Source: Kineosporiaceae bacterium
Lineage (GTDB): Bacteria; Actinomycetota; Actinomycetes; Actinomycetales; Kineosporiaceae
Direction of reading: 5' to 3'
NCBI GenBank assembly: GCA_046330935.1
Contig: JAXLRU010000005.1
Location: 120,096-184,095 of the forward strand
Length of the DNA: 64,000 nt
This document shows positions 21,560 through 58,687 of the stretch, in pieces. The first letter of the stretch is position 1. Every line of letters starts with the position of its first letter. The position numbers and the translations under genes were made by a program. The notes under the pieces are model-generated. The model had not been told where the DNA came from. It did not search any database and saw only the letters and a list, made by a program, of their open reading frames with translations.

Positions 21560-22954
<1,395 letters not shown>

Positions 22955-22973
22955 GGTCCTCGCCCGCACGTGC

Positions 22974-23010
22974 GAAGGCCCGCGACGGGCAGGACCGGTC
23001 GCGGGCCTTC
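22974..23010. terminator. Bidirectional intrinsic-terminator-like hairpin between glyS (+) and a small minus-strand gene
   Basis: Perfect 13-bp stem GAAGGCCCGCGAC / GTCGCGGGCCTTC with an 11-nt loop. Confidence 0.5.
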
Positions 23011-23029
23011 GGGCTTGAGTCGGCCGCCC

Positions 23030-23257
23030 TCAGGCGGCGTAGCGGGGAAGCGTCCAGTCGGTCGGCACGCGGCGGTCGCTGACCCACAGCTGCAGCTCGG
23101 CGCCCGTGAGGCCGAGGGTCGCCGCCGAGGCTGCGAGGTCTTCGCCCGCGCCGCGCACGGCGGTGGCCAGCGCGTTCTCCTCGAGGAGCGTGGCGTGGCG
23201 GTACGTCGCGGTGCGCCGCCCGTGGGCCTTCTGGGCCGCGGTGGTGATGATGCTCAT
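23030..23257 (-). CDS. Small hypothetical protein (75 aa)
   Basis: Strong RBS AAGGAGACAGCC ATG and clean codon bias. No recognisable domain. Confidence 0.4.
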   Translation of the reverse strand: MSIITTAAQKAHGRRTATYRHATLLEENALATAVRGAGEDLAASAATLGLTGAELQLWVSDRRVPTDWTLPRYAA

Positions 23258-23606
23258 GGCTGTCTCCTTGTCCTGCTCGGCCCTGACGGCTCGGGTGTTC
23301 TCAGAGTCGTCGGACGCGCTCGCGCCTACCTTGACCCTTTCGGGTGCGGGCCGTGCGGGCGAGCGATCGAACCCGGGGAGAACTCTCGGCGAACAGCGGC
23401 CCCGGCGCACGGCGGCGTCGCCTCCCGTGCGCAGGAGCGACGCCGGCGCGCCCGTGATACGGCCGCCGACCGCGTCTTGGGGGACGCTCAGCGCGGGATG
23501 CGCACGCGAACGCTCCCCGAAGCAGCGCGTGCTCGGCGCGGTGGACCGGGGCGTGTCGAGCGGGTCGCGCAGGGGCGCCACGCAGCGGCGACGACGGGAG
23601 CGAACC

Positions 23607-24020
23607 TCAGCCGCGCGTCGTCGCCAGGCGCCGGATGTTCGCCAGGGTCTGGGCGAGGCCCTCCTGGATCGCCTCGGGCTCGTCGTGCTCGGTGTGCAGG
23701 CGGACGTCGACGACGGACGTCGTACCGTCGCCACTGACCTCCAGCTCACCCTCGTAGTGGTGGTCCCCCTCGGCGCCCCAGCGGATCGTCCTGCTGGCCT
23801 CGTCGACGCGGAACCAGGCCTCGCCCCGCACGGTCTGCGGGCCCTCGCCCCCGGTGGCCTCGGGGGGAAGGGACGCCTCGACCTCGACGGCCTCACCGTG
23901 GGCGGGGTGCGCCTGCTGCATCCGGTCGACGTACTTGGGCATGTTCTCGACGTCGGAGAGGAAGTCGAACAGCGCGTCCGCGCCGAGGTCGACGGTCGCG
24001 GAGTCGTGGTAGTCGCCCAT
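23607..24020 (-). CDS. SRPBCC (START/Bet v1-like, polyketide-cyclase fold) family protein
   Basis: 137 aa, RBS GGAGG, composition typical of the SRPBCC ligand-binding fold. Confidence 0.55.
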   Translation of the reverse strand: MGDYHDSATVDLGADALFDFLSDVENMPKYVDRMQQAHPAHGEAVEVEASLPPEATGGEGPQTVRGEAWFRVDEASRTIRWGAEGDHHYEGELEVSGDGTTSVVDVRLHTEHDEPEAIQEGLAQTLANIRRLATTRG

Positions 24021-24186
24021 GGGAGCCTCCTGTCGCGGCGGCGGCACCGGTGCCACCACATCCGCCTCCCAGGCTCGCCCGCCCTGGCGGCCCGGGCGCG
24101 TCGAGACGGCACCCGTGACATCTGTCAGGGGCGGATCGTGACGACCTGCACGGGGACGGGCGGCCCGCTCACGGGAGCGTGGAGCC

Positions 24187-25167
24187 ATGACGACGACGAC
24201 CGGCGCCCCGGCGCTGCAGCTGCACGAGGTGACCAAGAGGTTCGGCGACGTCCTCGCCGTCGACGGCCTCGAGCTCACCGTCACCGCGGGAGAGGTGGTG
24301 GCGGTGCTCGGGCCCAACGGCGCGGGCAAGACCACGACCCTCGACATGGTGCTCGGGCTCGCCAGGCCGACCTCCGGCACCGTCCGCGCCTTCGGCCTGG
24401 ACCCCACCCGCGCCGTCGCCGCCGGGCGGGTCGCCGCGGTGCTGCAGTCCGGGGGGCTGCTGCGCGACCTGACCGTCGGCGAGACGGTCCGGCTGACCGC
24501 GAGCTTCCTGCGCTCCCACCGGCCGGTGGCCGAGGTGCTGGAGCGGGCGGGCATCGCCGACCTCGCCCCACGCCGCGTCGGCACCTGCTCGGGCGGCCAG
24601 CAGCAGCGCGTGCGCTTCGCCCTCGCCCTGCTGCCCGACCCCGACCTGCTGATCCTCGACGAGCCGACCACGGGCATGGACGTCGCGGGCCGCCGCGACT
24701 TCTGGACGGCGATGCGGCAGGACGCGCAGCGCGGCCGCACCGTGGTGTTCGCGACCCACTACCTCGACGAGGCCGACGCCTACGCCGACCGGATCGTCCT
24801 CGTGCGGGCCGGGCGCGTCGTCGCCGACGGCACGCCCGCCCAGATCAAGAACCTGGCTTCGGGTCGCGTGGTCAGCGCGACGTGGCCCGCGCCCGCCGAA
24901 GGGGAGCCCGGGGAGCTGGCGCTGCTCGCCGCGCCGCACGTGCGCGGCGTGGAACGGCGCGGCGACACGGTGCTCGTCACGACCACGGACTCCGACGCGG
25001 TGGCGAGGTACCTGCTCACCGCCACCCCCGCGTGCGACCTGGAGATCACCTCCCACCACCTCGAGGACGCCGTCCTCAGCCTTCTCGACGGCGCCGCGCC
25101 TCCCCTTCCCCTGGACGCCGAGACCGGCGGATCCCGCACCGACGAGCTCGTGAGGAGCACCCGATGA
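24187..25167 (+). CDS. ABC transporter ATP-binding protein (ABC-2/DrrA-like)
   Basis: Walker A GPNGAGKTT, signature CSGGQQQRV, Walker B LILDEPT, plus the C-terminal DrrA-like domain. Confidence 0.85.
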   Translation: MTTTTGAPALQLHEVTKRFGDVLAVDGLELTVTAGEVVAVLGPNGAGKTTTLDMVLGLARPTSGTVRAFGLDPTRAVAAGRVAAVLQSGGLLRDLTVGETVRLTASFLRSHRPVAEVLERAGIADLAPRRVGTCSGGQQQRVRFALALLPDPDLLILDEPTTGMDVAGRRDFWTAMRQDAQRGRTVVFATHYLDEADAYADRIVLVRAGRVVADGTPAQIKNLASGRVVSATWPAPAEGEPGELALLAAPHVRGVERRGDTVLVTTTDSDAVARYLLTATPACDLEITSHHLEDAVLSLLDGAAPPLPLDAETGGSRTDELVRSTR

Positions 25168-25484
25168 GCACCCCCACCCCCGTGGTCCCGACCGGCCCCA
25201 CCGTCGGCGTGCGCGCGGCGTCTCCGCCCGGACTGGGCGGCCTGACCTCCACGTTCCTCGCGATCGAGATCCGTCGCCTGCTGCGCAACCGCCGGATGGT
25301 GATCTTCTCGTTCGTGATGCCCGCCGGGTTCTACCTGCTCTTCGGCAAGGGCCGCCAGGATGCAGGCGACCCGGCGGCCGCCCGGTACGCCCTGGTCAGC
25401 CTCGCCCTCTACGCGGCCATGCTCACCTCGACGGCTGCGGGCGCCACCGTGTCCGTGGAGCGCGCGCAGGGGTGGAGCCGGCGG
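25164..25484 (+). pseudogene. ABC-2 family permease, N-terminal about 107 aa only (truncated after TM2/ERAQGWSR motif)
   Basis: ATGA-coupled to the ATPase. Sequence MVIFSFVMPAGFYLLFG...VSVERAQGWSRR matches ABC-2 permease N-termini, then homology stops. The remaining four to five TM helices are absent. Confidence 0.5.
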
Positions 25485-25581
25485 GCACGGGTTGTCGGGG
25501 TTGCGGGAGCGGGCGGAGGCGGCGGGTGCGGTGCTGCGCGTCGGGCGGGGGCGCGGGCGGGTTCGACGTGCGGGTGACGTG
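25483..25581 (+). pseudogene. Remnant matching the extreme C-terminus (HATPase_c G2 box/tail) of a sensor histidine kinase, in a different frame from the permease fragment
   Basis: Frame +1 translation GGHGLSGLRERAEAAGAVLRVGRGRGRVRRAG resembles the G-x-G-L-x-G-(M/L)-R-E-R-(A/V)-x-x-x-G-G-x-L tail of NarL-family kinases. No HisKA or ATP-lid region is present upstream. Confidence 0.35.
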
Positions 25582-26202
25582 GTGAGCGGGCGCGTGCGGC
25601 TGCTGCTGGCCGACGACCAGGCCCTCGTGCGCGGCGCGCTCGCCACCCTGCTGTCGCTGGAACCCGACCTCGAGGTCGTCGCCGAGGTCGGGCGGGGGGA
25701 CGAGGTGGTCGCGGCGGCCACGCAGGCGGGCGTCGACGTCGCCCTGCTCGACGTCGAGATGCCCGGCATGGACGGCATCGCCGCGACCCGTGCGCTGCTC
25801 GCCGCGATGCCGGCGGTGAAGGTTCTGGTGGTGACCACCTTCGGCCGCCCCGGCTTCCTGCGCCGGGCCTTGGAGGCGGGCGCGAGCGGCTTCGTCGTGA
25901 AGGACACCCCCGCACGGCAGCTCGCCGACGCCGTCCGGCGGGTGCACGCCGGCCTGCGCGTCGTCGACCCGGCGCTGGCAGCCGAGAGCCTCGCCTCGGG
26001 TGCGAGCCCGCTCACCGAGCGGGAGGCCGACGTCCTGCGCGCCGCGCGGGACGGCGGCACCGTCGCCGACGTCGCGAGGGCGGTGCACCTGTCGGAGGGC
26101 ACGGTCCGCAACCACCTGTCCTCGGCGATCGGCAAGACGGGGGCGCGCACCCGCGCCGAGGCGGTCCGGCTGGCCGAGGACGCGGGTTGGCTGCTGGGGT
26201 GA
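25582..26202 (+). CDS. Two-component response regulator, NarL/LuxR family (REC + HTH), apparently orphaned
   Basis: REC domain RVRLLLADDQALVRG with phospho-acceptor Asp in VALLDVEMPGMDG. C-terminal LuxR HTH LTEREADVLRAARDGGTVADVARAVHLSEGTVRNHLSSAIGK. Confidence 0.8.
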   Translation: MSGRVRLLLADDQALVRGALATLLSLEPDLEVVAEVGRGDEVVAAATQAGVDVALLDVEMPGMDGIAATRALLAAMPAVKVLVVTTFGRPGFLRRALEAGASGFVVKDTPARQLADAVRRVHAGLRVVDPALAAESLASGASPLTEREADVLRAARDGGTVADVARAVHLSEGTVRNHLSSAIGKTGARTRAEAVRLAEDAGWLLG

Positions 26203-26240
26203 GGGGGTGTTGCCTCCACGACCCGCGCGTGTACGTGCTC

Positions 26241-26534
26241 ATGTACATGACCGAAGTCGTCTCGGCCGCCGAACTTCGCGCCAACCTCAAGCGGCACCTG
26301 GACAACGTCACGTCGACTCACGAACGCGTCGTCGTCGCTCGTCAGGGCAAGCCGTCGGCGGTGCTCATTTCCCAGGACGACCTCGAGTCGCTCGAGGAGA
26401 CCGTGTCCGTGCTCAGTGATCCTGCCGCCATGGCCGACCTGTCCGGCGCCCAGGACGAGGTCGACCGGGGTGAGGTCTACTCGGCCGACGCCGTCCGGGA
26501 GGAGATGCGCGCCGAAGGTCGGCTCGCGCGGTGA
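26241..26534 (+). CDS. Type II antitoxin, Phd/YefM family
   Basis: MTEVVSAAELRANLKRHLDNVTSTHERVVVARQGKPSAVLISQDDLESLEETVSVL is canonical Phd/YefM. Confidence 0.8.
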   Translation: MYMTEVVSAAELRANLKRHLDNVTSTHERVVVARQGKPSAVLISQDDLESLEETVSVLSDPAAMADLSGAQDEVDRGEVYSADAVREEMRAEGRLAR

Positions 26535-26797
26535 GCTTCGAGGTCGTCCTCTCCCGCACGGCGCGACGAGCGCTGACGGAGACGCTGCCCCATGCCGTGG
26601 CGGCCTCGGCATGGGAGTTCATCGACGGACCGCTTCACGAGAACCCGCGACGCGTGGGCAAGCCGCTGGCCGGGCAACTGGCGGGTCGCTGGTCCGCGCG
26701 CCGTGGCACCTCCCGCATCCTCTCCTCGATCGACGGTGGTCGCCTGACGGTGCTGGTCCTGGACGTGAGGCGTCGCGCGGACGCCCACCGCACCTGA
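26531..26797 (+). CDS. Type II toxin, RelE/ParE family
   Basis: 88 aa. GTGA overlap with the antitoxin. RelE/ParE-like C-terminal segment GRWSARRGTSRILSSIDGGRLTVLVLDVRRRADAHR. Confidence 0.8.
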   Translation: MSFEVVLSRTARRALTETLPHAVAASAWEFIDGPLHENPRRVGKPLAGQLAGRWSARRGTSRILSSIDGGRLTVLVLDVRRRADAHRT

Positions 26798-26834
26798 GGA
26801 CGGCGGCACACACCGCAGCGAGCGCTGCCACACA

Positions 26835-28010
26835 ATGGACGGCGTGACCCTGCGCATCGGACCCCACGTCGTGCCCACCCCCGTGGTGCTGGCACCGATG
26901 GCGGGCATCACCAACCAGGCGTTCCGCCGGCTGTGCCGCGAGCAGATGGCCTCGGCGGGCGGCAAGGGCGTGTTCGTCAGCGAGATGGTCACCTCCCGCG
27001 CGTTGCTGGAGCGCAACGCCGAGTCCATGCGGCTGATCCAGCACGACCCCGACGAGGACCCGCGCAGCGTCCAGCTCTACGGCGTCGACCCGGGCGTCGT
27101 GGGCGCGGCGGTGCGGATGCTCGTGGAGGAGGGCCGGGCCGACCACATCGACCTCAACTTCGGCTGCCCCGTCCCCAAGGTCACCCGCAAGGGCGGCGGG
27201 TCGGCACTGCCGTGGAAGACGGGCCTGTTCGCGGCCGTCGTGGGTGCCGCCGTCCGCCATGCCGCTCCCGCCGGCGTGCCCGTGACCGTGAAGATGCGCA
27301 AGGGCATCGACCCCGACCACCTCACCTACCTGGAGGCGGGCAGGATCGCCGAGGCGCAGGGGGCGGCGGCGGTCGCGCTGCACGCCCGCACGGCCATGGA
27401 GTACTACGGCGGGACGGCCGACTGGTCGGCGATCGCGCGGCTCAAGGAGGTCGTCACCGGCGTGCCCGTGCTGGGCAACGGCGACGTCTGGACGGCCGAG
27501 GACGCGGTGCGGATGATGCGCGAGACGGGCTGCGACGGCGTCGTGGTCGGCCGCGGCTGCCTGGGGCGGCCGTGGCTGTTCGCCGACCTCGCCGCGGCGA
27601 TGGCCGGCAGTGACGCCCGGGTCCACCCCACCCTCGAGGAGGTGCTGGCCGTCATGCGCCGCCACCTCGTCGTCCTCGTCGAGCACTTCTCCGAGCAGTA
27701 CGACGACGCCGAGCGCCGCGGCTGCCGCGACATCCGCAAGCACGTCGCCTGGTACCTCAAGGGCTACGCCGTCGGGCACGACCTGCGCTCCCGCCTCGCC
27801 CTGGTGGAGTCGATCGAGGAGTTCGACGAGCTCGTCGCGGGCGCGGACGGGGACCAGCCCTACCCGGGGGAGGTCGCCGAGGGGCCGCGCGGGCGGACCA
27901 GTTCGGCGCGCGGGGTGAGCCTGCCCGACGGGTGGCTGCGCTCGCGGGACCTGGACGACGCCGAGCTGGCCGGCGTGGGACAGGCGGAACTGTCGGTCTC
28001 GGGCGGTTGA
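26835..28010 (+). CDS. dusB: tRNA-dihydrouridine synthase
   Basis: TIM-barrel Dus motif VLAPMAGITNQAFRRLCRE, catalytic Cys in NFGCPVPKV, and a C-terminal helical domain. Confidence 0.9.
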   Translation: MDGVTLRIGPHVVPTPVVLAPMAGITNQAFRRLCREQMASAGGKGVFVSEMVTSRALLERNAESMRLIQHDPDEDPRSVQLYGVDPGVVGAAVRMLVEEGRADHIDLNFGCPVPKVTRKGGGSALPWKTGLFAAVVGAAVRHAAPAGVPVTVKMRKGIDPDHLTYLEAGRIAEAQGAAAVALHARTAMEYYGGTADWSAIARLKEVVTGVPVLGNGDVWTAEDAVRMMRETGCDGVVVGRGCLGRPWLFADLAAAMAGSDARVHPTLEEVLAVMRRHLVVLVEHFSEQYDDAERRGCRDIRKHVAWYLKGYAVGHDLRSRLALVESIEEFDELVAGADGDQPYPGEVAEGPRGRTSSARGVSLPDGWLRSRDLDDAELAGVGQAELSVSGG

Positions 28011-28019
28011 ATCGCGACG

Positions 28020-29264
28020 ATGACGTACTCCGACGGCGACCGCGCGCGCTGGGTGCCCGAGCCCCCCAAGGATCCGGGTCGGGGCGAGTTCGCCCGCGAC
28101 CGGGCCCGGGTGCTGCACTCCTCCGCGCTGCGCCGCCTCGCCGCGAAGACGCAGGTGGTGGGCCCCGGAAGCGACGACTTCACCCGCACCAGGCTGACCC
28201 ACAGCCTCGAGGTCGCCCAGATCGGTCGTGAGCTGGGTGCCGCGCTGGGCTGCGACCCCGACGTCGTCGACACCGCCTGCCTCTCCCACGACCTCGGCCA
28301 CCCCCCGTTCGGCCACAACGGCGAGACCGCCCTCGACGACCTCGCCGCCGACATCGGCGGGTTCGAGGGCAACGCCCAGACCCTGCGCGTCCTCACCCGG
28401 CTCGAACCCAAGATCGTCGACCCGCGCACGGGTCGCGGGGTGGGGGTCAACCTCACCCGCGCGAGCCTCGACGCCGTCGCGAAGTACCCGTGGCGGCGCG
28501 GGCAGGGCCCGCCGCACACCTCGCCGGCCAAGTACGGCGTGTACGCCGACGACGCCGAGGTGTTCGCCTGGTTGCGGCACGACCCCGACGCCGCGGGGGC
28601 GCGGCGGTGCCTGGAGGCGCAGGTGATGGACGTCGCCGACGACATCGCCTACAGCGTCCACGACGTCGAGGACGCGGTCGTCGCCGGATCCGTCGACCTC
28701 GGCTGGCTGGACTCGCCCGAGGTCCGCGGCCGCGTCGCCGGGCGCGCGCGCAGCTGGTACGACGCGGGGATCACCGACGCCGACGTCGAGGCCACGGTGC
28801 TGCGCCTGTCGACGCTGCCCACCTGGGTGGCCGGATTCGACGGCAGCCTCCGCGCGCTCGCGGCCCTGAAGAACCACACCAGCCAGCTGATCGGACGATT
28901 CACTCGGGCCACGCAGGTCGCCATGCGGGACCGTTACGGGCCCGGCCCGCTCGCCCGCTATCGGGCCGATCTGGTCGTCCCCGAGGCCACGCGCGCCGAG
29001 ATCGTCGTGCTCAAGGCTGTGGCCGCCGAGTTCGTCATGTCCGCGGCGGCCCGTCGCCCCGAGTACGAGCGCCAGCGCGAGGTCCTCGTCGACCTCGTGG
29101 GTCTGCTCACCAAGCACGCCCCCGAAGGGCTCGACCCGATGTTCGCGGACCTGTGGGCGCACGCCCCCGACGACGGCGCGCGGCTGCGGGTCGTCGTCGA
29201 CCAGGTCGCCTCCCTCACCGACGCCAGTGCGGTGCTCCGGCGGGCCAGGCTGCTCACGGCGTGA
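28020..29264 (+). CDS. dgt: dGTP triphosphohydrolase-like HD-domain protein
   Basis: HD motif THSLEVAQIGR...SHDLGHPPFGHNGE. dgt-dnaG adjacency is conserved in Actinobacteria but is interrupted here. Confidence 0.85.
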   Translation: MTYSDGDRARWVPEPPKDPGRGEFARDRARVLHSSALRRLAAKTQVVGPGSDDFTRTRLTHSLEVAQIGRELGAALGCDPDVVDTACLSHDLGHPPFGHNGETALDDLAADIGGFEGNAQTLRVLTRLEPKIVDPRTGRGVGVNLTRASLDAVAKYPWRRGQGPPHTSPAKYGVYADDAEVFAWLRHDPDAAGARRCLEAQVMDVADDIAYSVHDVEDAVVAGSVDLGWLDSPEVRGRVAGRARSWYDAGITDADVEATVLRLSTLPTWVAGFDGSLRALAALKNHTSQLIGRFTRATQVAMRDRYGPGPLARYRADLVVPEATRAEIVVLKAVAAEFVMSAAARRPEYERQREVLVDLVGLLTKHAPEGLDPMFADLWAHAPDDGARLRVVVDQVASLTDASAVLRRARLLTA

Positions 29265-30237
29265 CCGGCGTGACCAGCCCTCCGGCGGCGCGCGCGTAGC
29301 GGTCGGCCAGCTCGGCGCAGGCCGCGGCGAGCTCGGGCGGTCCCACGACCTCGAGGTCGCAGCCGAAGCGGCCGAGGGACGCCGCGAGCCCCTGCCACGA
29401 CCATGAACCGGTCACCATCCGGCAGCGGTCGGGGCCTAGCTCCTGCACCAGCGCGTCCCCGGCGTAACGGGAGACGACGTCGGCCGGCAGGTCCAGGATC
29501 ACCTCACCGCGGCAGGCCCAGCCCGCCCGGCCCCGGAATCGGGCCAGGACGAAGGCGGTCACGTCGCCGCCGGGCAGCTCCCGCGGCGTGAACCGGGCAC
29601 CGTTCGGCGTCCGCAGTCGCATCCGGTCCACGCGGTAGGTCCGCCAGTCCTCGCGGTCGACGTCCCAGGCGAGCAGGTACCAGCGGCCCGCCCAGGTCAG
29701 GAGGTGGTGCGGCTGCGCGCGCCGCCAGGGTGCGCCCGTCGGGGCCGTCCCGCCGTCGTAGTCGAAGCGCAGCTCCTCGTGGTCGCGGACGGCCGACCCG
29801 AGCGCGACGAGCGTCGCCGCGGGAGGGGCCACCTCGGCCCGGCGCCGTGGCGGCCGCACGGCCGTCACCCGGACGGCGTCGACCCTCGAGCGCAACCTCT
29901 CCGGCAGCAGCTGCCGCACGGTGCCCAGGGCGCGGGCCGCCTCCTCCTCGATGCCCGTCCCGGAGTCCGCCGCCAGCTGCAGCGAGACGGCGAGCGCGAC
30001 GGCCTGGTCGTCGTCGAACAGCAGCGGCGGCAGCCGGGCCCCCGCCGCCAGCCGGTAGGCCGCCGCCGGACCGCGTCCGGCGGCGATCGGGTACCCGAGC
30101 TCCCGCAGCCGGTCCACGTCCCGCCGGACGGTGCGGGCGCTGACGTCGAGGCGTGCGGCCAGGTCCGCGGTCGTCCACTCGGGCCGCGCCTGCAGGAGGG
30201 ACAGGACGGCGAGCAGGCGGGACGACGTCGCGGGCAC
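29254..30237 (-). CDS. YafY-family transcriptional regulator (HTH + WYL + WCX domains)
   Basis: N-terminal DeoR-like HTH (SSRLLAVLSLLQARPEWTTADLAARLDVSARTVRRDVDRLRELGY). Central WYL-type region (RFDYDGG...HLLTWAGRWYLLAWDVDREDWRTYRVDRM). GTG start at 30237. Confidence 0.75.
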   Translation of the reverse strand: MPATSSRLLAVLSLLQARPEWTTADLAARLDVSARTVRRDVDRLRELGYPIAAGRGPAAAYRLAAGARLPPLLFDDDQAVALAVSLQLAADSGTGIEEEAARALGTVRQLLPERLRSRVDAVRVTAVRPPRRRAEVAPPAATLVALGSAVRDHEELRFDYDGGTAPTGAPWRRAQPHHLLTWAGRWYLLAWDVDREDWRTYRVDRMRLRTPNGARFTPRELPGGDVTAFVLARFRGRAGWACRGEVILDLPADVVSRYAGDALVQELGPDRCRMVTGSWSWQGLAASLGRFGCDLEVVGPPELAAACAELADRYARAAGGLVTPVTP

Positions 30238-30327
30238 GATCTCGAGGATGCCAGGAGAAGCGGCCAGAAACTGACCGCCACCCGCGGGAGGGTGGTCCCC
30301 GACCCCGTACCGACGGAAGGGCACGTC

Positions 30328-30930
30328 ATGACCACGACCACCACCGCCTCCCCGACCGCCGACCCCGCGCCCGCGCTCGCCCCGGGCTCGGAGAAGGCCG
30401 ACCTGCTCGCCGAGCTGGCCGTGGCGCGCGAGGCGCTCGTCCGCTCCACGCAGGGCCTCGACGACGAGCAGATCGCGCAGCGCCCGACCGTGTCGGCCCT
30501 GTGCCTGGGCGGTCTCGTCAAGCACGTCACCCAGGTCGAGGCGGCCTGGGTGCGGTTCATCGTCGAGGGCACCTCGGCGATGTCGTTCGACCTGCCCGAC
30601 GGGGTCACCTGGGAGGCGCTGTTCAGCGGCACCGCGGCGTCGGTCCCGCAATGGATGGTCGAGCGCCAGGAGGGCTTCGGCGTGCGTCCCGGCGAGACCC
30701 TGGCCTCGATCCTCGCCGCCTACGCCGAGGTCGCCGCACGGACCGAGCAGGTGGTGCGCGAGCTGCGCGACCTGAACGTGGCGCACCGGCTGGCACCGGC
30801 GCCCTGGAACGAGCCCGGCGCCGTGCACACCGCTCGGCGCGTGCTGATCCACGTGATCGCCGAGACCACCCAGCACGCGGGTCACGCCGACCTCCTGCGC
30901 GAGACGATCGACGGGGCGACGGCGACCTGA
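30328..30930 (+). CDS. DinB_2/DUF664 (mycothiol-dependent maleylpyruvate isomerase N-terminal-like) metalloenzyme-fold protein
   Basis: 200 aa with a conserved His triad pattern (HVTQVE...HVIAETTQHAGHADLLRE). Divergent from yafY, a common pairing. Confidence 0.6.
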   Translation: MTTTTTASPTADPAPALAPGSEKADLLAELAVAREALVRSTQGLDDEQIAQRPTVSALCLGGLVKHVTQVEAAWVRFIVEGTSAMSFDLPDGVTWEALFSGTAASVPQWMVERQEGFGVRPGETLASILAAYAEVAARTEQVVRELRDLNVAHRLAPAPWNEPGAVHTARRVLIHVIAETTQHAGHADLLRETIDGATAT

Positions 30931-30956
30931 GCCCACGTCCGTCACCCGGCCCGCTG

Positions 30957-30987
30957 CCCCGGCCACCGCTGCGTGCGGCGGCCGGGG
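30957..30987. terminator. Convergent-gene hairpin (CCCCGGCC ... GGCCGGGG)
   Basis: 8-bp GC stem between the DinB_2 stop and the flotillin stop. No U-tract. Confidence 0.3.
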
Positions 30988-31007
30988 CGACGGTTCCCCG
31001 GGCGTGC

Positions 31008-33011
31008 TCAGGCGAGCGGTGCGGCCGCCGTCGGGGCCGCGCTCCAGCCGCTCAGCCCCGCGGTGAGGGTCGCGGCGAGGCCGGTCAACGCCGAGCCCTC
31101 GGCGCCCGAGACGAGCACGTCGGGGACGATCTTCACCTGGCCCTCGGCCACCGCCGCGGCCACCGCGACCGCCGCCGTCGCCTCGCGACCGAGGGCGGCG
31201 ACCTGGGCCGAGTACCCGGCGGCCCTGGCCACCCCGATCGCCTCGGTCGCTGCGGCGTCGGCGAGGCCCACCGCACGGCGCCGGTCGGCGTCGGCCTGTC
31301 CGGTCATCCGCGTGTACGCGGCCGCGCCCTCCGCCTCCGCCGCGCGGGCGGCGGCCTGCGCGCGCTGGATGTCGACGTTGACGTTGGCCTTCGCGAGGTC
31401 GGCCTGCATGTCGGCCGTTCCGCGGGCCTTCTCCAGGTCGACGCGCACGACCTGCGCGCGCTGCTGCTCCTCGAACGTCGCGCGCTCCTGGTTGGCGATC
31501 TCACGCTGGGTCAGCACGGCGACCAGCTCCGGCGGGAAGCCGACGTCCTGGATGTAGACGCCCTTGGTCTCGACGTCGTAGCGGTCCAGGTAGGAGCGGA
31601 TGTACTCCTCCGCGCGGTGCTGCACGGCGTCCCGCGTCTCGATGAACTCCACGGCGGGCAGGGATTGCAGCGTGTTGCGGAAGTAGTTGCCCACGGCCGA
31701 CTGCAGCACCTCGTTCACGAGGTTCTGCATCGTCCCGACCATCGAGATCACCTTCGGTGCCTTGGAGTCGGGGACGTGGATCTGCACCTGCAGGTCGATG
31801 CCGAACACGAAGCCCTCGCGCGACTTGCCGTCGATGGGATTGAGGCCGGCGTCCAGGGTGTGCGCGAGCGAGACGCTGTTCGCCCAGTTCAGCGTGAGGA
31901 TCGAGGTGGGCACGACCTCGGGGGCGTACAGGCGAGGGTTGATCGGGTACTTGCCGGTGCGCAGCGGCTCACGCCAGATGCCCCGGTGGCCCGGCCGCAC
32001 GATCGAGCCGAACTTGAACTCCTGGCCGGAGGTGTCCACCGTCGGCAGGCCGACGTAGGACTTCACGACGGCGACCTGGCCCTGGCGCACGACGAGCATC
32101 GGCACGAACTCCACCCGCACCAGGAACGGGTTGATCAGGTAGGACCCGTACAGCAGCGGGTCGTGCTGCAGGCCGATCCGGCCGCCGGCGTCGAGGAACG
32201 CCTGGTAGTCCTGGTAGCTGTTGTGGATCTCGTTACGGCTGGCCAGCAGCGCCTCGATGACGGCCGAGTCGGGGCTGCCCTCGTGCTCGCCGTCGCCCTC
32301 CAGCGCCGCGATGTCGCTGTAGCCGCCCAGGCGCGAGGCGATGTCGCCGGCGTCGGGCGCCGGGCCCTCCAGAGTGGTGACGATGCCGACGACGTCCTGT
32401 TCGGCCTGGGGGGCGACGACGACGACGCGCAGCTGCGCCGGGTCGAGGCCGAAGCTCGCGCAGGTGAGCCGGCCGCGCCGGTCGGCGGGCAAAGAGCTGC
32501 TCACCGGCAGGCCGTAGACCCGCCCCGAGGTGAGCACGAGGAAGGCCACGGGGTGCATCGGCAGCAGCGTCCCGGGGGGCAGCACGGGCCGTTGGATGCC
32601 CTTCATGCCGCCGCCCTCGAGGAAGGCCGGCAGGTCGGTGAACGTGCCGTACTCGGTGCGGTAGGTGGCCGTCTTCGCGCCGATGGGCAGCGAGGCGCCC
32701 ACCTGGGAGATCACGACCCCGATCTCACCGGCCGGGACCTGCACCCAGGGGAACTTCTGGACGCCGTACACCGGCCAGAGCTTGAACCGCAGGCCGGGCA
32801 TCAGCAGCTTGGCCTGGTAGCCGGCCTCGCCGTGGAAGGCGAGGGGCTGATCGGCCTTGAGCCGCCGGCCGACGCGCTTGGTGACGAGCCCGACCTCGGT
32901 GGCTCCGACGACGCGCACCGACGCCAGCGCGGCGAGCAGCAGGAGGACGGCGGCGGCCGCCGTCACGAGGAGGCCGATCGGGAAGGGGGACACGGGGGAC
33001 TCCCGGGACAC
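31008..33011 (-). CDS. Flotillin-family SPFH/band-7 membrane scaffold protein (YqiK/FloT-like)
   Basis: N-terminal TM anchor, SPFH domain, long Ala/Glu/Gln-rich coiled-coil (QRAQAAARAAEAEGAAAY..), 667 aa. No NfeD partner adjacent. Confidence 0.8.
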   Translation of the reverse strand: MSRESPVSPFPIGLLVTAAAAVLLLLAALASVRVVGATEVGLVTKRVGRRLKADQPLAFHGEAGYQAKLLMPGLRFKLWPVYGVQKFPWVQVPAGEIGVVISQVGASLPIGAKTATYRTEYGTFTDLPAFLEGGGMKGIQRPVLPPGTLLPMHPVAFLVLTSGRVYGLPVSSSLPADRRGRLTCASFGLDPAQLRVVVVAPQAEQDVVGIVTTLEGPAPDAGDIASRLGGYSDIAALEGDGEHEGSPDSAVIEALLASRNEIHNSYQDYQAFLDAGGRIGLQHDPLLYGSYLINPFLVRVEFVPMLVVRQGQVAVVKSYVGLPTVDTSGQEFKFGSIVRPGHRGIWREPLRTGKYPINPRLYAPEVVPTSILTLNWANSVSLAHTLDAGLNPIDGKSREGFVFGIDLQVQIHVPDSKAPKVISMVGTMQNLVNEVLQSAVGNYFRNTLQSLPAVEFIETRDAVQHRAEEYIRSYLDRYDVETKGVYIQDVGFPPELVAVLTQREIANQERATFEEQQRAQVVRVDLEKARGTADMQADLAKANVNVDIQRAQAAARAAEAEGAAAYTRMTGQADADRRRAVGLADAAATEAIGVARAAGYSAQVAALGREATAAVAVAAAVAEGQVKIVPDVLVSGAEGSALTGLAATLTAGLSGWSAAPTAAAPLA

Positions 33012-33135
33012 AGGGGGGCCGGGTCCCCGCGCGGGGCGGGGCCGGGCCGCTCGCGCGTGGTCCGCGCGACGGCTGCCCTGGACGCTGTGTCCGCGGCCGC
33101 GGTTGCACGCCGTTCCTGTGCCCTGCGCGACGGCC

Positions 33136-33166
33136 TTGACCTTGACGTAACGTCAATCCCTAGCGT
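33136..33166 (+). promoter_or_regulatory. MerR-type promoter: -35 TTGACC, 19-bp spacer containing perfect dyad TTGACGTAACGTCAA, -10 TAGCGT
   Basis: Exact 19-bp spacing with the operator dyad centred in the spacer is the hallmark of MerR-family activated promoters (TipA/MerR/SoxR). It lies 38 nt upstream of the MerR/TipA-like GTG. Confidence 0.7.
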
Positions 33167-33203
33167 CGGGGACGGCGACGGAGAGCCCGTCGCCCGTGAA
33201 GGG

Positions 33204-34007
33204 GTGCACGAGGTGGACGGGCCGCGCGCGGAGACGGACAGCTGGACGGTCGGGCAGGTGGCCCGGCTGTCGGGCCTGACCACCCGGACGCTGCGCCACT
33301 ACGACCGGATCGGCCTGCTGCGGCCGCGGGTGGCGGACAACGGGTACCGCCGCTACGGCGAGCCCGAGCTGCAGCGCCTGCAGCACGTGCTGGTGCTGCG
33401 CGAGGTCGGCCTGCCGCTGGAACGCATCGGCGCCGTCCTCGACGGCGCACTCGACCGGCACGACGCGCTGCGCGAGCACCTGGCGTTGCTGCGCGGCGAG
33501 CGGGACCGCCTGGCCCGCGCCGTGGCCTCGGTGGAGCGCACCCTGGAGCACTGGCAGGAGGGGACGACGATGGACGTCGGGGAGATGTTCGCGGGGTTCG
33601 CGGCCAAGGGGCCGGCCCTGGAGGAGCGGCTGGCCGCCGACCACGGGGACGGCGTGCGCGCCACGTTCGCGACCAGCAGGGCACGGTCGGCGGCGATGAC
33701 CGCGGAGGAGAAGGCCGACGTGGTCGAGCAGTGGCGGGTGGTGGAGGACCGCCTGTTCGACCTGTTCCGGGACGGGCACCGCGCCCTGCCCGACCGGCCG
33801 CTGGACCCGGCGCTGGAGGCGGCGCTGGCCGCCCACCACGCCCAGGTGAGCAGGTTCTGGGCGCCCGACCGAGCCTCGTACACGGGCCTCGGGGAGCTGT
33901 ACGTGGCCGACCCGGAGTTCCGCGCCCGCTACGACGCGCGGGACCCGCACTTCGCCGGGTTCCTCCGCGACGGGGTGGCGGCATGGGCGGCGGCGCACCT
34001 GAGCTGA
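33204..34007 (+). CDS. MerR-family transcriptional regulator with C-terminal TipAS-like antibiotic-recognition domain
   Basis: HTH WTVGQVARLSGLTTRTLRHYDRIGLL, coiled-coil dimerisation helix, and a C-terminal TipAS/Mta-like domain (about 140 aa). Confidence 0.8.
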   Translation: MHEVDGPRAETDSWTVGQVARLSGLTTRTLRHYDRIGLLRPRVADNGYRRYGEPELQRLQHVLVLREVGLPLERIGAVLDGALDRHDALREHLALLRGERDRLARAVASVERTLEHWQEGTTMDVGEMFAGFAAKGPALEERLAADHGDGVRATFATSRARSAAMTAEEKADVVEQWRVVEDRLFDLFRDGHRALPDRPLDPALEAALAAHHAQVSRFWAPDRASYTGLGELYVADPEFRARYDARDPHFAGFLRDGVAAWAAAHLS

Positions 34008-56479: not shown

Positions 56480-58687
56480 TCAGCGCAGGGTGCAGCTCAG
56501 CCGCGAGGGTGAGGCCGCGCCGGCCACGACGACCGGAACCGCCGCCGACGCGCCTGCCGCGATCGGCGTCGTCGCGGTCAGCGTCACGCCCGGAGCCGCC
56601 GTCACCGCCAGGGTGCCCGCCTGCGTCACGTCGGTGCCCTCGGGCATCCCGACCGACCAGCCCGTCGCTGCCGCCGTTGCCGTGAGGGTGAGGACGCCCG
56701 CCGAACCGGAGCCCCACGCCGAGGTGAGGCGGTAGGTCACGGTGCAGCCGGGCCCCTCCCCGACGACGAGGGCGGCAGCGGGAGCCAGGGCCCGCGGGCG
56801 GGTGGTCTTCTTCTTCGTGGTCTTCTTCTTCGTGGTCTTCTTCTTGGTCGTCTTCTTCTTCGTGGTCTTCTTGGTGGGCTTCTTCGTGGTGCCGGGCTTG
56901 CTGGTGACCGGCTTCGAGGTGACCGGCTTCGTCGTCACGGGGGGAGTCGTGCCCGGCGCCGACGTCGTCGGCTTGGGGGAGGTGCCCGGCGTCGTCTGCG
57001 TGGGGGTGGGGGTGGTGGCCCCGCCCCAGCCGGCCGCGGAGTCGAGCCAGGAGGCCCGGGCGTGCATCCAGGTGGACAGCGCCGAGACCTGCCCCTGCCA
57101 GGTGGGTTCCGTGGACGTCTGGAAGAAGCCGATCGTGGCCTGGGACAGGTTGGGCCACTGCGTGAAGTTGCGCCCCGCCGCGTTCACCAGCGGAGCCGTC
57201 AGCGCCGCGACCTTCGCGTCGAGCGCGGCATCGGACAGCACGCCGCGGCGCAGCTCCTGCCAGCGCGCCCGCACCTGGTTGGCAAAGGCGGGGTCGGCCA
57301 TCAGCAGCGGGATCCAGTCGGTGGCCATGGGGGTGCGCTGGGAGATCTGCTGGTACTGCCAGCCCGAGGTCTGGTTGTTGCCGAAGAACCCGCCGACGCC
57401 GAAGGTCAGGTCGTAGTCCCAGCCCGGCCCGGAGGTGAGCAGGCCGCCGCGGTCCTTGGAGAAGTAGGCGCTGCGGACGTAGGCGTCCATGTCGCGGCTG
57501 AGCTCGTTGAGGACGACCGTGTCGACGAAGGAGCCCACATCGATGAACGCGCGGTACCCGGTGGCGGGGTCGCCGATGTCGGGCTGGTGCAGCCGGGCGT
57601 GGAACCGGGTGAGGTAGTCCCGGATGTAGGCGAGCTGCTCGGGTGCCGCGTCGTCGGGGTCGGCCAGCTCGACGTAGGTGAAGCAGGGGGAGACCCCGGA
57701 GCAGGTGATCAGCGTGCCGTCGGCCGCCATCCACTCGACCTTCACGATGTAGCCGCCCTCGACGTCGGGGGCCTGCAGGTCGGTCGACTTGAGCTTCTTG
57801 AGGTTCAGCCGGTCCTTCTGGTTCTTGATCGTCTCCATCATCATGTAGACGCCCCGGTAGTCCTCGGGTCCGACCGTCCCGTCGGCCACGTTGAGGTACA
57901 GCTCCACGAACCGGTAGCGCGGGGCGTAGCGGCCCATGTCCCGGGCGAGGTCGAACATCAGGGCGTTGCGGATGAGCGACTTGTCGGTGAAGGGCCCGCG
58001 CAGCACCCAGTCGGACTCGGCCGGCATCCCGAGGACGGGCAGGTCGACGTCGTCGTCGAGGTTGTCCCGCAGCTCGACCTTGTACTGCGCCTTGTCGAAC
58101 GTGGCCGAGGACTGCCCCCGCAGGTGGAAGCCGACGCGCGAGGTGAGGGTCGGGCGCCCCGACGGCGTCACCGTGCCGGTGCCCTCGAACGTCATCAGGG
58201 CGGCGTCCAGGTAGGGGTCCTTCGCCGGTTTGCCCTTGCCGAAGTCGTCGAGGACCACGACCGGCAGGTCGTGCTGCTGCGTGACGGCCTGCTTGAGGTA
58301 GAACGCCGAGGACGGGGCGCCCACCGGCGTGGACCCCGAGAACGCCTGGGCGCGCAGGCGGGTGCTCGTCGTCACGGTCAGGGCGCCCGACGCGGCCGGC
58401 GAGGAGGCCGAGGGCAGGCTCCCGTCGGTGGTGTAGCGGACGCTCGCCCCGGCCTGGGTCGTCGTCAGCGAGACCTGCAGGGACCCCGAGAACGTCTGAC
58501 TCGGCACCGAGAACGCGACGTCCCCGAGCATCGGGTCGGTCTCGGCCGCCTTCGCGGGCGACACGCGCTGCGCGGTGGCGGCGGCTCCACCCGTTGCCTC
58601 GGCGGGGACGAGCACCGTGGCCGACAGCGGCAGGGCGAGCGCGAGACCGACCGCGAGGAGGGCGGGACGCGTGCGGCGCAGGGACAT
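56480..58687 (-). CDS. Secreted CotH kinase-family protein: signal peptide - chitobiase/Fn3-like N-domain - CotH domain - Thr/Pro then (KKKTT)n linker - CBM2-like domain (copy 1)
   Basis: Signal peptide MSLRRTRPALLAVGLALALPLSA. CotH core (WVLRGPFTDKSLIRNALMFDLARDMGRYAPRYRFVELYLN...YRGVYMMMETIKNQ). C-terminal CxxxY...W...W...C CBM2-like module. Confidence 0.75.
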   Translation of the reverse strand: MSLRRTRPALLAVGLALALPLSATVLVPAEATGGAAATAQRVSPAKAAETDPMLGDVAFSVPSQTFSGSLQVSLTTTQAGASVRYTTDGSLPSASSPAASGALTVTTSTRLRAQAFSGSTPVGAPSSAFYLKQAVTQQHDLPVVVLDDFGKGKPAKDPYLDAALMTFEGTGTVTPSGRPTLTSRVGFHLRGQSSATFDKAQYKVELRDNLDDDVDLPVLGMPAESDWVLRGPFTDKSLIRNALMFDLARDMGRYAPRYRFVELYLNVADGTVGPEDYRGVYMMMETIKNQKDRLNLKKLKSTDLQAPDVEGGYIVKVEWMAADGTLITCSGVSPCFTYVELADPDDAAPEQLAYIRDYLTRFHARLHQPDIGDPATGYRAFIDVGSFVDTVVLNELSRDMDAYVRSAYFSKDRGGLLTSGPGWDYDLTFGVGGFFGNNQTSGWQYQQISQRTPMATDWIPLLMADPAFANQVRARWQELRRGVLSDAALDAKVAALTAPLVNAAGRNFTQWPNLSQATIGFFQTSTEPTWQGQVSALSTWMHARASWLDSAAGWGGATTPTPTQTTPGTSPKPTTSAPGTTPPVTTKPVTSKPVTSKPGTTKKPTKKTTKKKTTKKKTTKKKTTKKKTTRPRALAPAAALVVGEGPGCTVTYRLTSAWGSGSAGVLTLTATAAATGWSVGMPEGTDVTQAGTLAVTAAPGVTLTATTPIAAGASAAVPVVVAGAASPSRLSCTLR

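What the first reader, a model, noticed from the sequence alone, without database searches (positions are those of the whole stretch)
25164..25581. Deletion scar inside an ABC-transporter / two-component module leaves an orphan response regulator
The canonical actinobacterial four-gene unit (ABC ATPase, ABC-2 permease, HisKA_3 sensor kinase, LuxR response regulator) is present only as ATPase (intact), permease N-terminal 107 aa, then about 25 codons matching only the final G2-box/tail of a histidine kinase (GHGLSGLRERAEAAGAVLRVGRG, frame +1), then an intact regulator. The permease homology ends at the conserved ERAQGWSR motif around 25480 and the kinase-tail similarity starts within a few nucleotides in another frame. 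This is the signature of a roughly 1.5-2 kb internal deletion. The regulator would be uncoupled from its sensor, either constitutively off or cross-talking. A Phd/RelE TA pair sits immediately downstream.
Basis: partly seen in the sequence, partly recalled or inferred. Interest (0 to 1): 0.55.

Follow-up and report, generated by a model that had tools for sequence, protein, structure and literature searches.

The report
Deletion-gutted transporter/sensor operon, orphan regulator
A four-gene drug-pump-plus-sensor operon common in actinobacteria has lost about 1.5 kb from its middle in this uncultured Kineosporiaceae genome, which kills the pump and the sensor kinase and leaves an intact regulator; this is ordinary gene decay, correctly spotted.

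Summary
The window comes from a Kineosporiaceae MAG. In 68 of 68 related actinobacterial loci, the module is ABC ATPase, ABC-2 permease (about 261-268 aa in the loci read in detail), HisKA_3 kinase (about 380-410 aa) and NarL-type regulator. There, 1.93-2.56 kb separate the ATPase from the regulator start. In the window the same interval is 0.5 kb.

- **Permease remnant:** homology runs to codon 106 (…ERAQGWSR, 25458-25481).
- **Kinase remnant:** within a few bases the last ~35 codons of the kinase begin (GHGLSGLRERAEAAG…). A kinase-tail profile hits only here in the 64 kb (E 5e-6; 2e-10 after frame correction).
a +1 G in a G5 run (25547-25551) splits the kinase tail over two frames.

The ATPase, the regulator (D11/D12/D57/T85/K107) and a conserved upstream palindrome (TGACAnnTGTCA, 24116-24127) are intact, so the deletion looks recent. 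Four Kineosporiaceae relatives carry unrelated cargo between glyS and dus and no module, so the slot is in flux.

The main rival is a MAG assembly or consensus artefact, which cannot be tested without reads. This is ordinary pseudogenisation and of low interest.

The parts
24116..24127 (.). Palindrome TGACATCTGTCA (within CCCGTGACATCTGTCAGGGG), 60-71 nt upstream of the ATPase start codon. It is the putative operator of the module.
   Evidence: This is the only match to TGACANNTGTCA (<=1 mismatch) in the 64 kb window. The same palindrome lies within 300 nt upstream of the ATPase in 68/68 orthologous loci, against 11 hits in 1.35 Mb of background. Which protein binds it is inferred, not shown.
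24187..25167 (+). ABC transporter ATP-binding subunit, intact, 326 aa (NCBI MFN8076141.1).
   Evidence: ABC_tran E 1.8e-29. DrrA-subfamily-like but below the curated cut-off. It is 66-72% identical to orthologues. It deviates at only 6 of 150 conserved columns, mostly conservative changes (one is G251H).
25164..25481 (+). ABC-2 permease remnant: codons 1-106 of about 261-268, containing two hydrophobic segments and ending at ERAQGWSR.
   Evidence: Alignment A1 with five full-length permeases. tblastn of intact permeases covers only their residues about 2-107 (E 1e-24 to 1e-26). The orthologues are PF01061 ABC2_membrane.
25164..25577 (+). The 137-aa ORF annotated as a hypothetical protein (U0Q15_12070, MFN8076142.1). 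It is the permease N-terminus followed by 31 out-of-frame residues read through the kinase remnant. Its TGA stop is at 25575-25577, 4 nt before the regulator start.
   Evidence: It has no Pfam ABC-2 hit.
25477..25485 (.). Deletion junction. Permease homology ends at 25481 and firm kinase homology (G-H-G-L) starts at 25483. Bases 25477-25481 fit both sides, so microhomology is possible.
   Evidence: Codon-by-codon reading, with alignments. No repeat or mobile-element remnant was found at the junction.
25483..25551 (+). Histidine-kinase C-terminal remnant, part 1 (G2 box and following): GHGLSGLRERAEAAGAVLRVGRG.
   Evidence: The kinase-tail HMM hits only here in the window, E 4.8e-6. Alignment A2 is. 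tblastn with the Luteipulveratus kinase gives 68% identity over 25 aa, E 2e-4.
25547..25551 (+). G5 homopolymer carrying a +1 frameshift inside the kinase remnant.
   Evidence: Removing one G puts the whole tail in one frame (…VGRGAGGFDVRVTW*) and raises the HMM score from 27.2 to 36.3 bits.
25550..25585 (+). Kinase remnant, part 2: GAGGFDVRVTW plus the TGA stop, which overlaps the regulator start (GTGA).
   Evidence: Orthologous kinases show the same C-terminal GGF-x-L/V-x-V motif and, in several loci read, a stop that overlaps the regulator start.
25582..26202 (+). NarL/LuxR-type response regulator, intact, 206 aa, now without an adjacent kinase.
   Evidence: Response_reg 2e-22 and GerE 9.8e-12. 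It is 71-85% identical to orthologues. D11, D12, D57, T85 and K107 are present (read). It has four conservative deviations at 120 conserved columns.
26241..26797 (+). YefM/Phd antitoxin (26241-26534) and RelE-family toxin (26531-26797), inserted between the regulator and dus. They are a neighbour, not part of the module.
   Evidence: PhdYeFM 4.7e-18. The toxin matches PDB 3g5o (Rv2866) at E 6.8e-16. The pair is absent from most Cellulomonas loci, where dus follows the regulator within about 70-90 nt.

Best explanation
This is a decayed copy of a widespread actinobacterial four-gene module: operator, ABC ATPase, ABC-2 permease, HisKA_3 sensor kinase and NarL-type regulator. In several orders the module occupies the slot between glyS and dus.

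In this Kineosporiaceae MAG a single deletion of about 1.5 kb removed three things:
- permease codons from about 107 to the end, which in the Jiangellales orthologue is about 156 of 263 residues, so at most the two N-terminal hydrophobic segments remain;
- the short intergenic spacer;
- about 354 of about 390 kinase codons, covering the sensor, the DHp/HisKA_3 domain and most of the ATP-binding domain.

The break joined the two genes out of frame. A +1 G then also broke the remaining kinase tail. The exporter and the sensor are therefore null.

Inferred consequences. The ATPase has no membrane partner. The regulator can no longer be phosphorylated or dephosphorylated by its own kinase. If, as in AbrA1/A2, the phosphorylated regulator activates its own operon promoter, the most likely state is basal, unresponsive expression: the regulator becomes a silent passenger awaiting loss. 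A minority possibility is stimulus-independent activity through cross-phosphorylation.

The ATPase, the regulator and the operator are undamaged, which suggests the deletion is evolutionarily recent.
For: Shown:
- All 68 related loci have 1.93-2.56 kb between the ATPase and the regulator, against 0.5 kb in the window. In the loci read in detail that space holds a 261-268 aa ABC2_membrane permease and a 380-409 aa HisKA_3 kinase.
- Thirteen loci share the glyS…dus flanks.
- Permease homology stops at codon 106.
- The kinase-tail profile hits uniquely at 25477-25551 (E 4.8e-6) and at 2.2e-10 after removing one G.
- No other copy of the missing parts, and no other HisKA_3 kinase, is present in the window.
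- The regulator and ATPase are not accelerated relative to inter-order comparisons. ATPase identity is 66-70% against 68-73%, and regulator identity is 75-83% against 72-80%. Few conserved columns are changed.
- The palindrome is conserved in 68/68 loci and is perfect in the window.
- Four Kineosporiaceae relatives carry unrelated cargo in the glyS-dus slot (three loci) or immediately upstream of dus (L081) and no module there, so the module is dispensable in this family.

Precedent for the functional inferences comes from the S. coelicolor abrA operon (SCO1742-45). It is positively autoregulated, and AbrA2 appears to be phosphorylated without AbrA1, probably by cross-talk (PMC4193843).
Against: - The sequence is a single MAG with no reads available. 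No genome closer than 72% (ATPase) carries the module, so the intact ancestral state in this lineage is inferred from distant orthologues.
- The slot is a hotspot, so the module could have arrived by transfer already truncated.
- The intact ATPase and regulator are equally compatible with an assembly artefact or with continued function.
- Nothing about expression or phosphorylation was measured.
- Which protein binds the palindrome is not shown.
Confidence: 0.8

Rival explanations
1. Assembly or consensus artefact. The organism, or most of its population, has an intact module, and the MAG contig carries a mis-join or a minority deletion variant. The G5 run would then be a homopolymer miscall.
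For: The source is a MAG. No reads are available. None of four exact-sequence look-ups of the window's products (ATPase, regulator, the 137-aa ORF, DusB) found them in any other assembly. The flanking ATPase and regulator are perfectly intact, as expected if nothing is really missing. The extra base sits in a homopolymer.
Against: - There is no repeat at the junction that could collapse an assembly graph.
- The break falls at arbitrary points inside two genes and out of frame.
- The rest of the window tiles into 60 apparently unbroken genes at 90% coding density. There are 143 homopolymer runs of >=5 inside 40 long ORFs that tile without an obvious break; their intactness was judged from the tiling, not by comparison with homologues, so frequent indel errors look unlikely rather than excluded.
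- Relatives show that the module is readily lost from this slot.
Confidence: 0.1
2. The remnant is functional in a new form. The truncated permease (two hydrophobic segments) is a small membrane protein that works with the regulator. Alternatively, if the true run is G4, the locus encodes a single 345-aa membrane-anchored permease'-regulator fusion.
For: - The 137-aa ORF keeps its start, overlapping the ATPase stop, and ends 4 nt before the regulator start, so translational coupling is preserved.
- Deleting one G gives an uninterrupted 345-aa fusion in the regulator's frame.
- The operator, ATPase and regulator are all intact.
Against: - No homologue of such a short form or fusion was found: 2 hits in 5.8 billion proteins, one being the ORF itself and the other a 105-aa sequence (56% identical) from a 1,960-nt contig.
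- The ORF's last 31 residues are a Gly/Ala/Arg-rich out-of-frame read-through.
- The permease N-terminus is somewhat more diverged than in comparable inter-order pairs (48-58% against 54-68%).
- The sequence as given has G5.
Confidence: 0.05
3. Chance resemblance. The 'kinase tail' is only GC-rich Gly/Arg/Ala low complexity, and the locus never held a kinase.
For: The region is G-rich. Pfam finds no domain in the 74-aa or 34-aa translations. Single-sequence tblastn E-values are modest (2e-4 to 5e-3).
Against: - The profile hit is unique in 1,056 six-frame peptides (E 4.8e-6, next best 0.4) and improves to 2e-10 when the frames are joined.
- It sits where a kinase C-terminus should, and ends in a TGA that overlaps the regulator's GTG by four bases, as in several orthologous loci.
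- All 68 orthologous loci have the full ~2 kb spacing between ATPase and regulator, and a HisKA_3 kinase was read there in the loci examined.
Confidence: 0.02

Closest known systems
Streptomyces coelicolor abrA operon, SCO1742-SCO1745 (ABC ATPase, permease, kinase AbrA1, regulator AbrA2)
   Same: It has the same four-gene order, transcribed from a promoter upstream of the ABC genes. That promoter is positively autoregulated. Phosphorylated AbrA2 is inferred to arise without AbrA1 by cross-talk, and the kinase also sets the dephosphorylation rate (PMC4193843). This is the best experimental guide to what an orphaned regulator of this type does.
   Different: Orthology to the window's module was not tested, because no SCO sequence was available here. 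The abrA operon is intact, whereas the window's copy lacks the permease C-terminus and nearly all of the kinase.
Bacillus subtilis LnrJK-LnrLMN (YfiJKLMN) polyene/linearmycin-sensing module
   Same: A two-component system sits next to the ABC exporter genes and controls them from a dedicated promoter. The transporter feeds back negatively on signalling (PMC7472640). This is the same functional logic of sensing a compound and inducing a pump.
   Different: It is from Firmicutes, the gene order is TCS first, and it has two permease genes. It was not compared by sequence here. It is a functional analogue, not a shown relative.
Long-standing orphan response regulators of Actinobacteria (e.g. GlnR, NnaR)
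   Same: They are regulator genes without an adjacent kinase (PMC10235972 and PMC6277429, listed).
   Different: Those are ancient, conserved orphans with dedicated regulons. This one is a fresh orphan with the deletion scar of its kinase still visible next to it, and its orthologues are all paired.
RelBE/YefM-type type II toxin-antitoxin pairs (M. tuberculosis Rv2865-Rv2866)
   Same: The downstream pair has a YefM/Phd antitoxin followed by a RelE-family toxin with a 4-nt overlap. The toxin matches Rv2866 (PDB 3g5o) at E 7e-16.
   Different: It is a neighbour only and has no link to the deletion. It is absent from most of the orthologous Cellulomonas loci.

Membership tests
ABC-2 exporter + HisKA_3/NarL two-component four-gene module (actinobacterial glyS-dus type) | ABC ATPase with ABC_tran domain as the first gene | tested here: met
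   PF00005 E 1.8e-29. It is 66-72% identical to the ATPases of 68 loci.
ABC-2 exporter + HisKA_3/NarL two-component four-gene module (actinobacterial glyS-dus type) | Full-length ABC2_membrane permease (about 260 aa) | tested here: not met
   Only residues 1-106 remain. The window ORF has no PF01061 hit, whereas the orthologues hit it at 1e-14 to 1e-18.
ABC-2 exporter + HisKA_3/NarL two-component four-gene module (actinobacterial glyS-dus type) | Sensor kinase with HisKA_3 dimerisation/phospho-acceptor domain and ATP-binding domain | tested here: not met
   Only about 35 C-terminal codons remain, split over two frames. There is no HisKA_3 match anywhere in the window. The orthologues hit PF07730 at 1e-17 to 4e-19.
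ABC-2 exporter + HisKA_3/NarL two-component four-gene module (actinobacterial glyS-dus type) | NarL/LuxR-type regulator (receiver + GerE HTH) as the last gene, with its start overlapping the kinase stop | tested here: met
   (Response_reg, GerE). The GTGA overlap at 25582-25585 is visible.
ABC-2 exporter + HisKA_3/NarL two-component four-gene module (actinobacterial glyS-dus type) | Conserved palindrome TGACAnnTGTCA upstream of the ATPase | tested here: met
   Position 24116-24127, a perfect match and the only one in the window. It is present in 68/68 loci.
ABC-2 exporter + HisKA_3/NarL two-component four-gene module (actinobacterial glyS-dus type) | Position between glyS and dus | tested here: met
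   The flanks are shared with 13 loci from Cellulomonas, Geodermatophilaceae and a Jiangellales MAG (in the last, dus lies upstream of the module); Luteipulveratus L072 shares the dus side only.
AbrA1/A2 (SCO1742-45) orthologue | Sequence orthology to SCO1742-1745 | not tested
   No S. coelicolor sequence was retrievable with these tools. The resemblance is architectural only.
Orphan response regulator | No cognate kinase gene adjacent | tested here: met
   There is no intact kinase next to the regulator and none within the 64 kb window.
Orphan response regulator | No cognate kinase elsewhere in the genome | not testable with these tools
   Only the 64 kb window of the MAG is available.
Type II toxin-antitoxin, YefM/Phd-RelE | Antitoxin with Phd/YefM domain followed by an overlapping RelE-fold toxin | tested here: met
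   PF02604 4.7e-18. The toxin matches Rv2866/RelE structures at E 7e-16 and 1.5e-15. The 4-nt overlap is at 26531-26534.

The most novel reading that the evidence does not exclude
The regulator is not a doomed passenger but a retained, working orphan. On this reading the deletion alone (with the ancestral G4 run) would have fused the permease N-terminus in frame to the regulator, giving a 345-aa membrane-anchored protein. The +1 G in the kinase remnant would then be a compensatory second-site change. It terminates the upstream ORF 4 nt before the regulator's start codon and so restores a free, translationally coupled regulator. That regulator would still act at the perfectly conserved TGACAnnTGTCA operator, through cross-phosphorylation by another kinase.
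Probability: 0.08. Interest if true: 0.45.

Novelty: new member of a known kind. Interest (0 to 1): 0.18.

Why it matters
The main value is practical and modest.

- **Annotation:** the 137-aa 'hypothetical protein' U0Q15_12070 is a pseudogene fragment, and the adjacent ATPase and regulator should not be counted as a working transporter or two-component system when this MAG's physiology is reconstructed.
- **Natural knock-out:** if the deletion is real, it is a natural kinase and permease knock-out of a module that is otherwise strongly conserved, operator included, across several actinobacterial orders and appears not to have been studied experimentally in these lineages.
- **By-products:** the comparison turned up the conserved palindromic operator and showed that the glyS-dus interval is a cargo-swapping hotspot in Kineosporiaceae. 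Both may be more useful than the scar itself.

Tried and rejected
- **Exact-sequence look-ups** of the window's ATPase, regulator, 137-aa ORF and DusB found no other assembly carrying them. No independent copy of the locus could be checked.
- **Searches for closer relatives.** The best non-self ATPase is 72% identical. The best non-self permease N-terminus is 56% identical, a 105-aa sequence from a 1,960-nt contig.
- **DusB-based relatives.** The closest relative found through DusB (94% protein, 83% DNA identity; L081) and three family-level relatives lack the module altogether. They cannot show an intact version in this lineage.
- **Second copy in the window.** Looking for a translocated or inverted copy of the missing permease or kinase parts found nothing.
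- **Repeats at the junction.** The direct and inverted repeat search gave only GC-rich noise.
- **Promoters and terminators.** The sigma-70 promoter and terminator scan found nothing. It is uninformative for this organism.
- **Gene calling.** A first GC3-based gene caller picked antisense shadow ORFs and was discarded. It was replaced by a codon log-likelihood caller.
- **Linking the palindrome to the regulator.** Comparing loci without an adjacent regulator was inconclusive: most still have the motif, and two lack it.
- **Literature.** A search for 'ragABKR' returned nothing, so that comparator, recalled from memory, is not used.
- **PADLOC** finds no defence-system match for the TA pair.
Full report
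**What is in the sequence**

The + strand around the finding reads as follows:
- glyS (21560-22954);
- two small minus-strand genes: a 75-aa ORF at 23030-23257 and an SRPBCC/polyketide-cyclase-like protein at 23607-24020;
- an intact ABC ATPase (24187-25167; ABC_tran E 1.8e-29);
- an ORF that starts at ATG 25164, overlapping the ATPase stop;
- an intact NarL/LuxR-type response regulator (GTG 25582 to 26202; Response_reg 2e-22, GerE 1e-11);
- a YefM/Phd antitoxin (26241-26534) and a RelE-family toxin (26531-26797; PDB 3g5o Rv2866, E 7e-16);
- dus (26835-28010) and dgt (28020-29264).

The sequence comes from a MAG labelled Kineosporiaceae bacterium. The ATPase is NCBI MFN8076141.1. The 137-aa ORF at 25164-25577 is annotated as hypothetical protein U0Q15_12070 (MFN8076142.1). 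Both are singletons in a collection of about 15 billion proteins.

**Check of the observation**

A three-frame translation shows the permease-like product up to …VSVERAQGWSR (25458-25481), followed by Gly/Ala/Arg-rich sequence to a TGA at 25575-25577. In the next frame, GHGLSGLRERAEAAGAVLRVGRG runs from 25483 to 25551. In the third frame, GAGGFDVRVTW is followed by a TGA at 25583-25585 that overlaps the regulator's GTG (GTGA).

I fetched 80 loci that encode relatives of the ATPase. In 68 of them the ATPase, the permease N-terminus and the regulator lie in this order. In the seven loci read gene by gene, an ABC2_membrane permease of 261-268 aa and, in four of them, a HisKA_3 kinase of 380-409 aa were read as clean ORFs; the genes are tightly packed or overlap.

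The distance from the ATPase (query residue 299) to the regulator start is 1,933-2,556 nt in the 68 loci. In the window it is 499 nt. Alignment with five full-length permeases shows homology through window residue 106, after which the orthologues continue QLRLTPL… for about 155 more residues. Alignment with four kinases places the window's fragment on their last ~35 residues, from the G2 box onward.

By the Jiangellales orthologue's coordinates, the missing piece is about 468 nt of permease, its stop, a 7-nt spacer and about 1,062 nt of kinase. That totals about 1.54 kb.

**Is the kinase tail chance?**

A profile built from the last 60 residues of the orthologous kinases was searched, with filters off, against all 1,056 six-frame peptides of the window. 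It hits only 25477-25551 (E 4.8e-6). The next best hit has E 0.4.

Joining the two frames by removing one G from the G5 run at 25547-25551 raises the score from 27.2 to 36.3 bits (E 2.2e-10). The position and the stop/start overlap with the regulator are also as expected. The similarity is therefore real.

**Is the missing DNA elsewhere in the window?**

tblastn with intact permeases and kinases, and a full-length kinase profile, find no other copy and no other HisKA_3 kinase in the 64 kb. No direct repeats or mobile-element remnants flank the junction. Bases 25477-25481 can be read as either permease or kinase, so a few bases of microhomology are possible. This cannot be proved without the ancestral sequence.

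**State of the survivors**

- **Regulator.** It keeps D11, D12, D57, T85 and K107. It differs at only 4 of 120 strongly conserved columns, and all four changes are conservative.
- **ATPase.** It differs at 6 of 150 conserved columns, mostly conservatively (one change is G251H).
- **Divergence.** Against loci from other orders, the window's ATPase (66-70% identity) and regulator (75-83%) are about as similar as those orders are to each other (68-73% and 72-80%). The permease stub is somewhat more diverged (48-58% against 54-68%).

There is thus no clear sign of long neutral decay in the flanking genes. This fits a recent deletion, continued use of the regulator, or an artefact.

**A conserved operator**

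Upstream of the ATPase lies CCCGTGACATCTGTCAGGGG (24112-24131). The core TGACANNTGTCA, with at most one mismatch, occurs within 300 nt upstream of the ATPase in 68 of 68 loci:
- about -67 in Micromonospora;
- -102 in Cellulomonas;
- about -105 to -136 in most Nocardia loci (-75 in a few);
- -126 in a Jiangellales MAG.

Only 11 hits occur in the other 1.35 Mb of those loci. The window has exactly one hit, at 24116-24127. By analogy with NarL-type regulators and the autoregulated abrA operon (PMC4193843), I infer that this is the regulator's operator. The binder was not shown, and loci without an adjacent regulator did not settle the question.

**Context in closer relatives**

Searching with DusB found a contig with 94% identical DusB (L081; 83% DNA identity over dus-dgt-WYL regulator) and three family-level Kineosporiaceae assemblies at 76-77%. 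None has the module.
- L081 carries a DUF7657/GT2/DUF2304 cassette upstream of dus.
- L084 carries a MimR_N regulator plus a flavin monooxygenase between glyS and dus.
- L086 carries a DUF6636 protein there.
- L087 carries three rhodanese genes there.

In 13 loci from Cellulomonas, Geodermatophilaceae and a Jiangellales MAG the module lies next to both glyS and dus (between them in the first two groups), and the Luteipulveratus locus shares the dus side. The slot is therefore a cargo-swapping hotspot in this family, and the module is evidently dispensable. A half-deleted copy is what one expects to catch in such a place.

It also means that I cannot show an intact copy in a near relative. The possibility that the module arrived already truncated stays open.

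**How it most likely works**

*Shown:* the permease lacks more than half of its length, the kinase lacks everything except its last ~35 codons, and those are frameshifted.

*Inferred:* the exporter and the sensor are null, and the ATPase has no membrane partner. The regulator has lost both its phospho-donor and its phosphatase.

In the S. coelicolor abrA operon, which has the same gene order, the operon promoter is positively autoregulated. AbrA2 appears to be phosphorylated in the absence of AbrA1, probably by cross-talk, with toxic effects when in excess (PMC4193843). In B. subtilis LnrJK-LnrLMN, induction strictly needs the two-component system (PMC7472640).

My best estimate is that the operon here idles at basal level and the regulator is a silent passenger (about 55-60% of the weight within the 'real deletion' scenario). 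Kinase-independent activity through cross-talk is a minority alternative.

As assembled, the truncated ORF stops 4 nt before the regulator's start, so translational coupling is preserved. With a G4 run instead of G5, the ORF would run in frame into the regulator and give a 345-aa fusion. I note this as a curiosity and as the basis of the low-probability 'compensatory frameshift' reading.

**Rivals**

The serious rival is a MAG assembly or consensus artefact. Against it:
- there is no repeat at the junction;
- the break is arbitrary and out of frame;
- a second independent lesion lies inside the remnant;
- the rest of the window tiles into 60 apparently unbroken genes at 90% coding density, with 143 homopolymer runs of five or more inside 40 long ORFs that tile without an obvious break. 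I did not check each ORF against homologues, so this argues against a high indel error rate but does not exclude errors.

I give this rival about 10%. Chance similarity is effectively excluded. A neo-functional small protein or fusion gets about 5%.

**Comparison with known systems, and novelty**

Architecturally this is the actinobacterial 'ABC-2 exporter + HisKA_3/NarL' module, whose studied example is abrA (SCO1742-45). Its functional analogue in Firmicutes is LnrJK-LnrLMN. Membership of the module family is met for the ATPase, regulator, operator and genomic position. It is not met for the permease and kinase, because the locus is a remnant of a member, not a working member.

Pseudogenisation by internal deletion and the resulting orphan regulators are well known. 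The locus is a new instance of a known kind, and interest is low (0.18). The practical outcomes are an annotation correction for U0Q15_12070, the conserved operator, and the hotspot nature of the glyS-dus interval.

Noticed in passing
window 24116-24127; loci L001-L075 upstream of the ATPase: The palindrome TGACAnnTGTCA is conserved upstream of the ABC ATPase in 68/68 orthologous loci from Micromonospora, Nocardia, Cellulomonas, Geodermatophilaceae, Luteipulveratus and Jiangellales. Background is 11 hits in 1.35 Mb. There is a single perfect copy in the window. It is a putative operator of an uncharacterised but widely conserved module.
   Followed up: yes
window 22955-26834; L081, L084, L086, L087: The interval between glyS and dus holds different cargo in every Kineosporiaceae relative examined: a DUF7657/GT2/DUF2304 cassette, MimR_N plus flavin monooxygenase, DUF6636, or three rhodanese genes. 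Several other actinobacterial orders keep the ABC/TCS module there. The interval is a gene-swapping hotspot inside the conserved glyS-dus-dgt-dnaG neighbourhood.
   Followed up: partly
window 25547-25551: A G5 run carries a +1 frameshift inside the kinase remnant. With G4 the kinase tail is in one frame, and the truncated permease ORF would fuse in frame to the regulator (345 aa).
   Followed up: yes
window 26241-26797: A YefM/Phd-RelE toxin-antitoxin pair is inserted between the regulator and dus (the toxin is similar to M. tuberculosis Rv2866). It is absent from most Cellulomonas loci, where dus follows the regulator within about 70-90 nt. Some other loci (L044, L048, L063, L073) have unexamined insertions of 0.7-1.5 kb at the same point.
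   Followed up: partly
window 23030-23394; L081 1407-1765: A small 75-aa minus-strand gene with no Pfam hit is 86% identical at the DNA level to the closest relative's contig, although the genes on both sides of it differ between the two genomes.
   Followed up: no
window 56480-58687 and 58778-60985 (minus strand); 61088-62481: Two tandem 735-aa paralogues (68% identical) each have a signal-peptide-like N-terminus, a CHB_HEX_C/Fn3-associated domain, a CotH kinase domain and a Lys/Thr-rich linker. They lie next to a VTC-domain protein and a DUF4956 protein.
   Followed up: partly
window 29254-34007: Between dgt and dnaG lie a WYL-domain HTH regulator (minus strand), a 667-aa SPFH/Band-7 protein (minus strand) and a TipA-like MerR regulator. 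In relatives L084 and L087 this interval is different or shorter.
   Followed up: no
L086 2144-2984: In a related MAG the undecaprenyl-diphosphate-synthase-like gene (Prenyltransf) is split into 188-aa and 111-aa ORFs, which looks like a frameshift. This suggests indel errors in that assembly. The crude gene tiling of the window showed no obvious split of this kind.
   Followed up: no
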